Assembly (NCBI RefSeq): GCF_011045215.1
Contig: NZ_CP049201.1
Direction: 5' to 3' (one strand)
Length of the DNA: 64,000 nucleotides
DNA from: Escherichia coli
GTDB lineage: Bacteria > Pseudomonadota > Gammaproteobacteria > Enterobacterales > Enterobacteriaceae
The notes below the pieces were generated by a model. It was not told the origin of the DNA. It made no database searches and worked only from the letters and a program-made list of their open reading frames with translations. Below, in pieces: positions 3,601 to 6,600 of this stretch. A program made the translations under genes and the position numbers. Positions within the stretch are counted from its first letter, which is position 1; each line of letters starts with the position of its first letter.

Positions 3601-6600
3601 TCATTTTCCTAATTCTCCAGCTAAAAGTTCAGCCTGCTTCAAAACAGTCTCTGTGGCGAGCAATGACATATCAGGCGGATAACCATATTTTTTGAGCAGA
3701 CGTTTTACCACCACGCGAATTTTTGCTCTTGCTGCTTCTTTCACTGTCCAGTCAAGACTGACATTGTTGCGGATAGCCTCCGTAAGTACGACTGCCAGTT
3801 CTCGTAGTTTTTCCTTTTCCATTAACTCGCGAGCACTGTCGTTATCTGCAACAGCAGAATAGAAGGCATATTCATAAGCGCTGAGGTTTAACTGGCTGGC
3901 AAGGCTGTCAGATTCCTGGATAGTCTTGGCAAGCTTGATTAGCTCATCAATTACCTCCGCTGCTGTCAGTACCTTGTTCTGGTAGCCATTGATTGCAGAG
4001 GTCAGCATATCAATCAGTTTTTTGCCTTGGGTGATACTTTGATTCGAGCGAACTTTAATCTCGTCAGAAAGCAGTTTTTTAAGCGTTTCCAAAGCAATAT
4101 TTCTGTGTTGGTAATCCTTCATTTCCTGAAGGAATTCTTCAGAAAGAACGGAAATATCTGGCTTTTGTATCCCAGCAGCGTCAAAAATATCAACAACTTT
4201 ATCGGTAACCAGAGCCTGATCGATAGTCTGTTTTACCCGAACTTCCAGACTGTCATTGTGTTCTTCTTCTGATCCGTCTGAGTTTTCAGTAAATTTATTC
4301 AGTCTGGCTTTTACTGCCTGGAAGAATGCTACTTCGGGTGCCGCTTCCATTGCTTTATCGTGCGGTGTCGCCAATGCAAATGCCTGCGACAAGGCTGCAA
4401 CCGCAGCCAGGAAACGCATTTTACCTTTACCGTTATCCAGCCCTAAAATATGGTTTTCTGATTCAAGAATAATTGTCAGGCGTTGTGAAGTAGTTGCGGC
4501 AAAGTAAGCTTTGTAATCGTAGCCATGCATCATGCCTTCCAGGATTTCCAGCTTTTCCTGCATGAGCGTTACAGCTTCTTCCTGAACCTCAGCAGGATCT
4601 CCACGTCCACCTGCATCAGAGTAAAAGGAGAGGGCTTCTTTTAAATCAGAGGCAATGCCCAGATAGTCAACAACCAGACCGCCTATCTTATCTTTATACA
4701 CACGGTTCACACGGGCAATTGCCTGCATGAGGTTGTGGCCTTTCATTGGTTTGTCGATATACAGCGTATGCATGCTGGGAGCGTCGAAGCCGGTTAACCA
4801 CATATCACGCACTATCACCAGTTTCAGCTTGTCGTCGTCATCCTTCATACGATTAGCCAGAACCTGACGTTCTTTTTTTGTGGTGTGGTGTTTAGCGATT
4901 TCTGGTCCGTCAGCAGCAGAAGAGGTCATGACGACTTTAATCACGCCATCATTTAGATTATCGCTGTGCCATTCAGGTTTTAACTCTATGATTTCTTTAT
5001 AAAGTTCAGCAGCAATACGACGGGACATGGTGACAATCATGCCCTTGCCATGATCGGCATTAGATTTTAAGCGCTGTTCAAAGTGCTGAACCATATCCGC
5101 CGCAATAGCTTTAATACGTTTTGAACTGCCAATCAAACCTTCGATTCTGGCCCATTTAGACCGTTCTTTCTGGGTAAGCGTCAGCTCGTCTTCGTTAAAC
5201 TCATCGTCGAAGTCTTCAATTAGCTGGCGACCTTCGTCACTGATGGCAATTTTGGCAAGACGGCTTTCATAGAAGATACGCACGGTTGCACCGTCTTCTA
5301 CGGCCTGTGAGATATCGTAGATATCAACGTAGTTACCAAAAACAGCAGGTGTGTTTACGTCCGTTTTTTCTATGGGGGTTCCGGTAAAGCCAAGATAGGT
5401 AGCATTGGGCAAGGCATCACGCATATATTTGGCAAAGCCGTAAACGGTGCGTTTACCTGTTACGTTGCCTTCGCTGTCTTTCACGTCAACTTCTTTGGCG
5501 CTGAAACCGTATTGTGAACGGTGGGCTTCATCAGCGATAACGACAATATTGGTTCTGTCTGACAACAACTCATAGATATTGCTGCCATCATTAGGCTGGA
5601 ATTTTTGAATAGTGGTAAACACCACACCACCAGAGGCTACGCGCAAATATTCTTTGAGTTCTTCCCGGTTGTCGGCCTGTTTTGGTGTCTGACGAAGTAG
5701 CTAGGTCGCGGAAGAGAACGTACCGAATAGCTGATCATCCAAATCGTTACGGTCAGTAATCACAACAACTGTCGGATTATCCAGCGCCAGCACAATTTTC
5801 CCGGTATAAAACACCATCGAAAGCGATTTACCGGAACCCTGAGTATGCCAGACTACGCCCGCTTTGCGATCTCCGGTTTTTTGCGCATTAACAAGATCTT
5901 TACTGTTACGTCCCTGCTGGCGCAGTGCCACTTCGGCAGAGGGGGAGTCCGCATTCACCGCTGAGGCACGAATAGTGGAAAGAACTGCTGCATTGACCGC
6001 GTAGTACTGGTGATAAGCCGCCATTTTTTTAACAGTACGGATACTGATAATCCCTTTGCTGTCTTCATGTTTGCTGGCCTCAAACACGATAAAGTGGCGG
6101 ATCATATCCAGCAGCGTTACAGGATTAAGCAACCCCTGTAATAAAACTTCAAGCTGTGGTTGGGTACTGGTGGCTTGCGTTTTACCGTTAGCAGTTTTCC
6201 ACGTCATATAACGACTGAAATCGGCAGAAACCGTCCCCGCTTTGGCTTCCAGCCCGTCAGATATCACATTAAAAGCATTGTAGTTAAACAGACCGGGGAT
6301 TTGGTTCTGATAGGTTTTAATCTGATTATAGGCACCTGTTACCGTAGCATTTTCGTCAGCGGCATTTTTAAGTTCGATAACGACTAATGGCAGGCCGTTG
6401 ATGAATAAAATAAGATCAGGTCGGCGGGTATGATTGCCTTCTTTGATGGTGAGCTGATTAATGACCAGAAATTCATTATTAGTGGGATCGTTAAAGTCGA
6501 TCAGGCAGGCCAGCTCTCCTTGTGTATTACCATCCTTACTGACTTCGATATTGATCCCTTCGGTCAACAGGCGATGAAAGGCCAGATTGTTTGCCATTAG

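What the first reader, a model, noticed from the sequence alone, without database searches (positions are those of the whole stretch)
5701..5703. hsdR interrupted by a single in-frame amber codon: predicted restriction-minus, modification-plus type I system
The two HsdR ORFs are in the same frame and separated only by a TAG, with the sense sequence ...[35 protein letters not shown]... lying between helicase motif I and the DEAH box. hsdM and hsdS are intact, so the locus is predicted to methylate but not restrict unless the amber is suppressed. This could reflect domestication of the R-M system or an amber-suppressor background.
Basis: seen in the sequence. Interest (0 to 1): 0.6.

Follow-up and report, generated by a model that had tools for sequence, protein, structure and literature searches.

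The report
Recent nonsense mutation in hsdR
One base change (CAG to TAG, Gln380 to stop) has recently knocked out the DNA-cutting subunit of a mobile type I restriction-modification system in this E. coli strain. The methylase genes are intact, so this is an ordinary, well-known kind of gene loss.

Summary
hsdR lies on the minus strand (6840..3601, 1079 codons). Codon 380 is TAG (window 5703..5701), between the Walker A motif (GSGKS, residues 335-339) with motif Ia (360-364) and the DEAH box (437-440).

- **Ancestral codon:** six complete E. coli genomes carry an hsdR that differs from the window at one base only, window 5703, giving CAG (Gln) instead of TAG.
- **Private allele:** none of 315 complete E. 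coli genomes with this gene has the T. Citrobacter sp. R56 and 7 metagenome contigs also have C. All 11 other full-length copies examined are uninterrupted, with dN/dS of 0.03-0.05.
- **Not an assembly artefact:** the T allele recurs in a separate assembly of read set SRR11014969, identical to the window over 12.8 kb. All 25 neighbouring core genes are intact.
- **hsdM and hsdS:** both are nucleotide-identical to intact relatives.

The system sits on an island at ssrA that is nearly identical between distantly related strains, so it was acquired recently. The best reading is a very recent loss-of-function mutation, giving a predicted restriction-minus, modification-plus state. The phenotype is inferred, and a suppressor tRNA could not be checked. 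This is a routine pseudogene of a long-known kind, of low interest.

The parts
3601..6840 (-). hsdR, the type I restriction (R) subunit gene. It has 1079 codons and is disrupted by one in-frame TAG, so it is a pseudogene in this strain.
   Evidence: Translation. TIGR00348 matches both halves. The restored protein scores 1225 bits against PADLOC REase_I. It is identical to the intact WP_033548215.1 gene of six E. coli genomes except at one base.
5701..5703 (-). Amber codon 380 (TAG). The derived base is window 5703: A on the + strand, T on the coding strand. The ancestral codon is CAG (Gln).
   Evidence: The C allele is present in every other locus examined.
5704..6840 (-). N-terminal 379-codon remnant ORF. 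It contains the PD-(D/E)xK nuclease motif (residues 141-158), Walker A (335-339) and motif Ia (360-364).
   Evidence: Pfam families HSDR_N, ResIII and SWI2_SNF2 hit this product.
3601..5700 (-). C-terminal remainder of hsdR. It contains the DEAH box (437-440), the rest of the motor, and the helical and C-terminal domains. The first in-frame restart codons are TTG at 5646 and GTG at 5625 and 5622.
   Evidence: A gene caller placed a 673-aa product here, with Pfam families SWI2_SNF2, T1R_D3-like and T1RH-like_C.
6899..8050 (-). hsdS, the specificity subunit (383 aa), intact.
   Evidence: 100% nucleotide identity to the annotated gene in AHB18. The exact protein is found on 448 contigs. It gives a full-length match (1-383 against 1-406 of 406) to PADLOC Specificity_I.
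8047..9594 (-). hsdM, the methyltransferase subunit (515 aa), intact. It overlaps hsdS by 4 bases.
   Evidence: 100% nucleotide identity to the annotated gene in AHB18. The exact protein is found on 455 contigs. TIGR00497 matches, and PADLOC MTase_I scores 629 bits.
9748..9775 (-). Sigma-70-like promoter match upstream of hsdM (TTGACG, 16-base spacer, TACAAT). This is weak evidence only.
   Evidence: The number of promoter-like sites in the region is not above that found in shuffled sequence.
14808..16037 (-). Integrase of the genomic island that carries the hsd genes, next to the ssrA attachment site.
   Evidence: Annotation of the collinear AHB18 locus. The gene is intact.
16204..16566 (-). 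ssrA (tmRNA). It marks the island/core boundary, where divergence from AHB18 jumps from about 0.06% to about 3%.

Best explanation
A single, very recent C-to-T transition on the coding strand (window 5703) changed Gln380 (CAG) of HsdR to an amber stop. The gene belongs to a horizontally acquired type I R-M operon (hsdM-hsdS-hsdR) on a genomic island integrated at ssrA.

Translation should end after residue 379, inside the first RecA-like motor domain. The resulting fragment has the nuclease motif and Walker A. It lacks DEAH, the second motor domain, and the helical and C-terminal region through which R docks on the methylase core.

Any product restarted downstream would lack the nuclease motif and the ATP-binding loop. 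Neither piece should translocate or cut DNA.

hsdR is the last gene of the cluster, so the stop has no polar effect on hsdM or hsdS. Both are unchanged, and the M2S trimer can methylate without R. The strain is therefore predicted to be restriction-minus, modification-plus for this system.

Shown here: the mutation, its ancestral state, its privacy to this strain, the intactness of M and S, and purifying selection on hsdR elsewhere. Inferred: loss of restriction, retained methylation, and whether the loss was neutral decay or selected.
For: - **One-base difference:** it is the only difference in 3240 bp from six complete E. coli genomes, where the gene is annotated intact.
- **Not in complete E. 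coli genomes:** none of 5,426 matches the 61-mer centred on the T perfectly. 315 carry the gene and 277 differ at a single base of the 61.
- **C allele elsewhere:** Citrobacter sp. R56 has C, as do all 7 metagenome contigs.
- **Intact orthologues:** 11 other full-length loci have no internal stop or gap.
- **Selection:** dN/dS against six diverged copies is 0.028-0.052.
- **Independent assembly:** the T allele is present in the Logan assembly of SRR11014969, which is 100% identical to the window over 12,840 bp.
- **Protein collection:** the 379-aa and 673-aa fragments occur on only that one contig among about 15 billion proteins.
- **Clean assembly:** all 25 core genes from 16.7 to 37.8 kb are intact.
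- **M and S unchanged:** hsdM and hsdS are 100% identical to intact relatives and their exact proteins are widespread.
[quoted passage not shown] S. aureus RN4220, with a premature stop in hsdR, modifies but does not restrict (PMC3312211).
Against: - No phenotype or methylome data exist here.
- It cannot be shown that SRR11014969 is a read set independent of the one behind the deposited genome.
- The rest of the genome could hold an amber-suppressor tRNA. Only 64 kb was visible, containing tRNA-Glu and tmRNA only.
- Basal UAG read-through in suppressor-free E. coli inserts glutamine (Nilsson and Ryden-Aulin 2003, seen only as a reference in PMC5289835). That would recreate wild-type HsdR, so trace restriction activity cannot be excluded.
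Confidence: 0.85

Rival explanations
1. The TAG is a sequencing or assembly error and the strain really has CAG.
For: It is a single-base difference from six otherwise identical genes. The source genome itself could not be inspected.
Against: A separate assembly (Logan) of public run SRR11014969 has the same base and matches the window perfectly over 12.8 kb. The change is a substitution outside any homopolymer. All 25 neighbouring core genes are intact, so the assembly is not error-ridden.
Confidence: 0.05
2. The amber codon is read through at a useful level, either by a suppressor tRNA elsewhere in the genome or by near-cognate tRNA-Gln. Functional HsdR is then still made and the strain still restricts, perhaps at a reduced, tuned level.
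For: Near-cognate read-through of UAG in E. coli inserts Gln, the ancestral residue (reference list of PMC5289835). The base after the stop is C, not the strongly terminating U.
Against: No suppressor tRNA is in the window. The allele is private to one strain and is not conserved in any relative, which is the opposite of what a programmed read-through site would show. From general knowledge, basal read-through is a small fraction of a percent to about 1%.
Confidence: 0.04
3. The loss was positively selected rather than neutral. After the island entered a chromosome lacking the matching methylation, or under pressure to take up plasmids, cells with a dead hsdR were favoured. This refines the cause and does not change what the locus is.
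For: The island differs from that of AHB18 at only 9 sites in 16 kb, while the flanking core differs by about 3%, so acquisition was recent. The nonsense change is one of very few changes since then. Establishing type I systems in a new host needs restriction alleviation (PMC3874165). Other strains have lost the system in other ways: IS1 inserted in hsdR in OW967802, and hsdMS deleted in E. coli C.
Against: This is one event in one strain, with no convergence at this site. Most carriers keep hsdR intact under strong purifying selection. A second cargo gene (ankyrin) is also broken, which fits plain relaxed selection on island cargo equally well.
Confidence: 0.2
4. The two ORFs are made as separate polypeptides that reassemble into an active split HsdR.
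For: A gene caller predicts both a 379-aa and a 673-aa product. In-frame TTG and GTG codons lie 19-27 codons after the stop.
Against: The break falls inside the first RecA-like domain, between motif Ia and motif II. No orthologue is split. There is no convincing ribosome-binding site upstream of the restart codons.
Confidence: 0.01

Closest known systems
S. aureus RN4220 hsdR (Sau1) premature stop codon
   Same: A nonsense mutation in the R subunit of a type I system with intact M and S, giving a strain that modifies but does not restrict (PMC3312211).
   Different: RN4220 is a chemically mutagenised laboratory strain and its phenotype is proven by complementation. Here the allele was found in an E. 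coli genome of unidentified origin and the phenotype is only predicted.
E. coli K-12 hsdR laboratory alleles (r-m+ cloning hosts such as hsdR17), type IA EcoKI
   Same: The same genetic logic, from general knowledge: loss of R leaves M2S methylation in place.
   Different: The system is different. HsdR here shares only 23% identity over 185 residues with EcoKI HsdR, and HsdM 23%. The gene order is M-S-R at the ssrA island rather than R-M-S at the K-12 hsd locus.
EcoR124I (type IC), the closest solved HsdR structure
   Same: The same domain plan: N-terminal PD-(D/E)xK nuclease, SF2 motor and C-terminal region. The aligned stretch around the stop is recognisable, and a Gln of EcoR124I lines up with Gln380.
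   Different: Only three short stretches align (E about 3e-28), so this is not a close relative.
Other decay states of the same island system
   Same: The same orthologous hsd cluster at ssrA, damaged by other routes: IS1 inserted in hsdR (E. coli OW967802), and hsdM/hsdS deleted next to ISSen4 leaving an orphan hsdR (E. coli C).
   Different: Those are insertion or deletion events. Here a point mutation removes R only, giving the opposite outcome to E. coli C (M and S kept, R lost).

Membership tests
Type I restriction-modification system | Three adjacent genes for the M, S and R subunits | tested here: met
   hsdM 9594-8047, hsdS 8050-6899 and hsdR 6840-3601 are adjacent. TIGR00497 and TIGR00348 match. 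PADLOC MTase_I, Specificity_I and REase_I match. RefSeq annotates the collinear loci the same way.
Type I restriction-modification system | R subunit with an N-terminal PD-(D/E)xK nuclease plus SF2/DEAD-box motor motifs | tested here: met
   PD...ELK at 141-158, GSGKS at 335-339, DEAH at 437-440 and QAIARVNR at 706-713. Pfam families HSDR_N, ResIII and SWI2_SNF2 hit the products. The reading frame is interrupted at codon 380.
Type I restriction-modification system | S subunit with two target-recognition domains | tested here: met
   End-to-end match (1-383 against 1-406 of 406) to a Specificity_I model, and separate matches of each half to other models. PF01420 hits the product.
Type I restriction-modification system | ATP-dependent translocation and cleavage far from a bipartite m6A site | not testable with these tools
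   This needs biochemistry or a methylome.
Type IA (EcoKI family) | High sequence similarity to, and complementation with, EcoKI subunits | tested here: not met
   HsdR shares 23% identity over 185 aa (E 0.001) and HsdM 23% over 435 aa.
Type IB (EcoAI family) | Match to the EcoAI-family R subunit model above its cut-off | tested here: not met
   NF046051 scores 23.9 bits against a cut-off of 550.
Type IC (EcoR124I family) | Close similarity to EcoR124I HsdR | tested here: not met
   Only three local stretches align, for 101 bits in total.
Type ID / IE (StySBLI, EcoR9I, KpnAI / KpnBI) | Close similarity to, or complementation with, the archetypes | not tested
The families are only listed in PMC12707154.
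hsdR-null, r-m+ strains | Inactivating lesion in hsdR with intact hsdM and hsdS | tested here: met
hsdR-null, r-m+ strains | Loss of restriction with retained modification in vivo | not testable with these tools
   This needs a phage or plasmid efficiency-of-plating test and a methylome.

The most novel reading that the evidence does not exclude
The amber codon is not a dead end. Low-level read-through by near-cognate tRNA-Gln would restore the ancestral residue, and a natural suppressor tRNA in this lineage would also allow read-through. Either would yield a trickle of full-length HsdR, so the freshly acquired island restricts weakly while the chromosome stays fully methylated. That would be a naturally arising 'attenuated restriction' state that eases establishment of a new R-M system.
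Probability: 0.03. Interest if true: 0.45.

Novelty: already known. Interest (0 to 1): 0.12.

Why it matters
It matters little beyond annotating this strain. The locus should be labelled an hsdR pseudogene with active-looking hsdM and hsdS.

Practical consequences, if the prediction holds:
- The strain should not restrict incoming DNA through this system.
- It should still show the system's m6A motif in methylome data.
- DNA leaving it should be protected against relatives that carry the same HsdS.

The locus also adds one more example of how cargo on the ssrA island decays in different ways in different E. coli: a point mutation here, an IS1 insertion in OW967802, and loss of hsdM/hsdS in E. 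coli C.

Tried and rejected
- **Source genome in the E. coli collection:** not found. The best core identity to any of 5,426 complete genomes is 98.9%. A RecN look-up points to an NCBI E. coli chromosome of 5,409,430 bp (QIF12557.1) that is not among the searchable records.
- **Literature on the strain:** a search for SRR11014969, QIF12557 and WP_164475533 returned nothing.
- **GTDB representative genomes:** the scan returned only Citrobacter sp. R56, which has CAG.
- **Suppressor tRNA:** this cannot be tested. Only tRNA-Glu(UUC) and tmRNA are in the window, and the tools give no route to the rest of the genome.
- **Literature on natural amber suppressors in wild coliforms:** nothing usable was found.
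- **Dcm hot spot:** considered and rejected. The ancestral context ACCCAGCT is not a CCWGG site (read directly).
- **Phase variation:** rejected. The change is a substitution outside any repeat.
- **'Two halves are normally separate genes':** rejected.
- **Promoter and terminator scan:** nothing above the level in shuffled sequence.

Full report
**1. The observation**

Window 5701-5703 is CTA on the + strand, which is TAG on the - strand.

Translating 6840..3601 gives 1079 codons with exactly one internal stop, at codon 380, in the quoted context ...[32 protein letters not shown]....

- Nuclease motif PD...ELK: residues 141-158
- Walker A (GSGKS): 335-339
- Motif Ia (VITDR): 360-364
- Stop: 380
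- DEAH: 437-440

The two ORFs match complementary parts of the HsdR model TIGR00348, profile positions 2-261 and 325-670. Pfam hits precomputed for the same two products are HSDR_N, ResIII and SWI2_SNF2 on the first. The second has SWI2_SNF2, T1R_D3-like and T1RH-like_C. This is one gene cut once.

**2. What the codon used to be**

A megablast of the 3240-bp gene against 5,426 complete E. coli genomes finds it in 319 of them. Six are at '100.0%' identity: TUM9812, 19AR1724, 23AR1217, 24AR0180, CEA601S and AHB18. There the gene is annotated as an intact protein, WP_033548215.1.

Base-by-base comparison with TUM9812 gives a single difference in 3240 bp. It is window 5703, T in the window against C on the coding strand, so CAG (Gln380) became TAG. 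The equal bit scores of the six hits (5978) indicate one mismatch in each.

**3. How widespread the T allele is**

- **Complete E. coli genomes:** a 61-mer centred on the site matches none of them perfectly. 315 carry the gene, and 277 of those differ at exactly one base of the 61.
- **Other genomes:** a pattern with N at the site returned Citrobacter sp. R56 from the species-representative genomes and 7 metagenome contigs. All have C.
- **Protein look-up:** the 379-aa and 673-aa fragments are present on one contig only among about 15 billion proteins. That contig comes from the Logan assembly of run SRR11014969.
- **That contig:** it is 100% identical to the window over 12,840 bp, so it is the same strain or a very close relative.

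The allele is therefore private to this strain. It has been recovered by a second assembler from a public read set.

The window's RecN is found on just two contigs. One is the same Logan contig and the other is longer than 1 Mb. The cluster look-up lists this protein as NCBI QIF12557.1, with a longest contig of 5,409,430 bp. That is presumably the source genome. Whether SRR11014969 is independent of the data behind it could not be determined.

**4. Is the assembly trustworthy?**

All 25 core genes between 16.7 and 37.8 kb are full length, with no internal stops or frame shifts relative to E. coli A16. The hsdR change is a substitution outside any homopolymer. I put the error hypothesis at about 5%.

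**5. Are the two halves ever separate genes?**

No. All 11 other full-length copies examined have an uninterrupted, gap-free 3240-bp frame. They come from E. coli, Citrobacter and metagenomes and are 95.8-99.97% identical to the window's copy.

Nei-Gojobori dN/dS against six diverged copies is 0.028-0.052. The intact gene is under strong purifying selection elsewhere. The window copy carries no other change relative to its nearest relatives, so the stop is very recent.

**6. The rest of the system**

- hsdM (9594-8047, 515 aa) and hsdS (8050-6899, 383 aa) overlap by 4 bases. Both are 100% nucleotide-identical to the annotated intact genes of AHB18.
- Their exact proteins are found on 455 and 448 contigs, in several Enterobacteriaceae.
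- PADLOC models give MTase_I 629 bits, an end-to-end Specificity_I match, and REase_I 1225 bits for the restored R.
- hsdR is the last gene of the cluster, so the stop cannot be polar on M or S (read from the gene order).
- Promoter and terminator scans gave nothing above the level in shuffled sequence.

**7. Context**

The genes lie on a genomic island integrated at ssrA. It also carries:
- an integrase (14808-16037);
- a serine recombinase and two ParB-like genes;
- IS fragments, including an IS1 remnant;
- ankyrin-repeat genes.

Against AHB18 the island (1-16,000) differs at 9 sites, while the next 9 kb of core chromosome differs at 267 sites. The island has therefore moved between distant E. 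coli lineages recently.

Other strains show other decay routes for the same system. OW967802 has IS1 inserted in hsdR. E. coli C has lost hsdM and hsdS next to an ISSen4 copy and keeps an orphan intact hsdR.

**8. Mechanism (inferred)**

[quoted passage not shown] The M2S trimer methylates on its own (PMC3874165).

- A 379-residue product would carry the nuclease motif and the P-loop. It would lack DEAH, the second motor domain and the C-terminal regions.
- A product restarted at TTG 5646 or GTG 5625/5622 would lack the nuclease motif and the P-loop.
- The break lies inside the first RecA-like domain, so reassembly of the two pieces is very unlikely.

The prediction is restriction-minus, modification-plus.

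The closest precedent is S. aureus RN4220. [quoted passage not shown] The E. coli K-12 r-m+ hsdR cloning hosts are the textbook equivalent (own knowledge).

**9. Rivals**

- **Error:** about 0.05 (section 4).
- **Suppression or read-through:** about 0.04. No suppressor tRNA is in the window and the rest of the genome is out of reach. Basal UAG read-through in E. coli is reported to insert Gln (Nilsson and Ryden-Aulin 2003, seen only as a citation in PMC5289835). That would recreate wild-type protein, but at trace level. The allele's absence from every relative argues against a programmed site.
- **Selected rather than neutral loss:** about 0.2, and compatible with the main explanation. The island is recent, and establishing a type I system in a naive host depends on restriction alleviation (PMC3874165). 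However, this is a single event, and a second cargo gene on the island is also broken.
- **Active split enzyme:** about 0.01.

**10. Family placement**

It is a type I R-M system by gene content, domain content and model matches.

- **Not type IA:** 23% identity to EcoKI HsdR and HsdM.
- **Not type IB:** the EcoAI model scores 23.9 bits against a cut-off of 550.
- **Not a close relative of type IC:** only three local stretches align with EcoR124I, at about 101 bits.
- **Types ID and IE:** not tested, because no archetype sequences were available.

**11. Verdict**

Biologically it is an ordinary, private, recent nonsense mutation in a mobile defence gene. This is a long-known kind of event, so interest is low.

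Noticed in passing
window 1386-2371 (- strand): The ankyrin-repeat gene of the same island is also broken in this strain. It has a 1-base deletion in an A7 run (about window 1704) that truncates it at 226 of 328 codons, plus S126R (1994) and a tandem CC-to-TT change giving L190F (1804-1805). Three mutational events fall in 987 bp, while the other 15 kb of the island has six differences from AHB18, only two of them shown to be derived in this strain. The Logan contig shares them.
   Followed up: partly
window ~16,000-16,600 (ssrA boundary): There is a sharp break in divergence from E. coli AHB18: 9 differences in the first 16 kb (island) against 267 in the next 9 kb (core). The island has been exchanged recently between distant lineages.
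   Followed up: partly
L008 (E. coli C, NZ_CP020543.1) 3299-8133: E. coli C, the classic non-restricting host, carries an intact orphan hsdR of this family at ssrA. Its hsdM and hsdS are missing next to an ISSen4 copy. E. coli OW967802 has IS1 inserted in the same hsdR.
   Followed up: partly
window 16,000-40,000: The core chromosome here is at most 98.9% identical to any of 5,426 complete E. coli genomes. tyrA (31978-33099) is only 95.2% identical to the best-matching genome. This suggests an uncommon lineage or a recombined segment.
   Followed up: no
window 5703 and 1804-1805: The hsdR C-to-T change lies in a CCC run, and the ankyrin change is a CC-to-TT tandem. Both are UV-like dipyrimidine signatures, but there are far too few events to draw a conclusion.
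   Followed up: no
window 2891-3555 (+ strand): An IS1 copy immediately downstream of hsdR is annotated in the near-identical islands of TUM9812 and AHB18 as a pseudogene with an internal stop. It is intact in ET210 and E. coli C. The window's copy has one derived substitution (3065).
   Followed up: no
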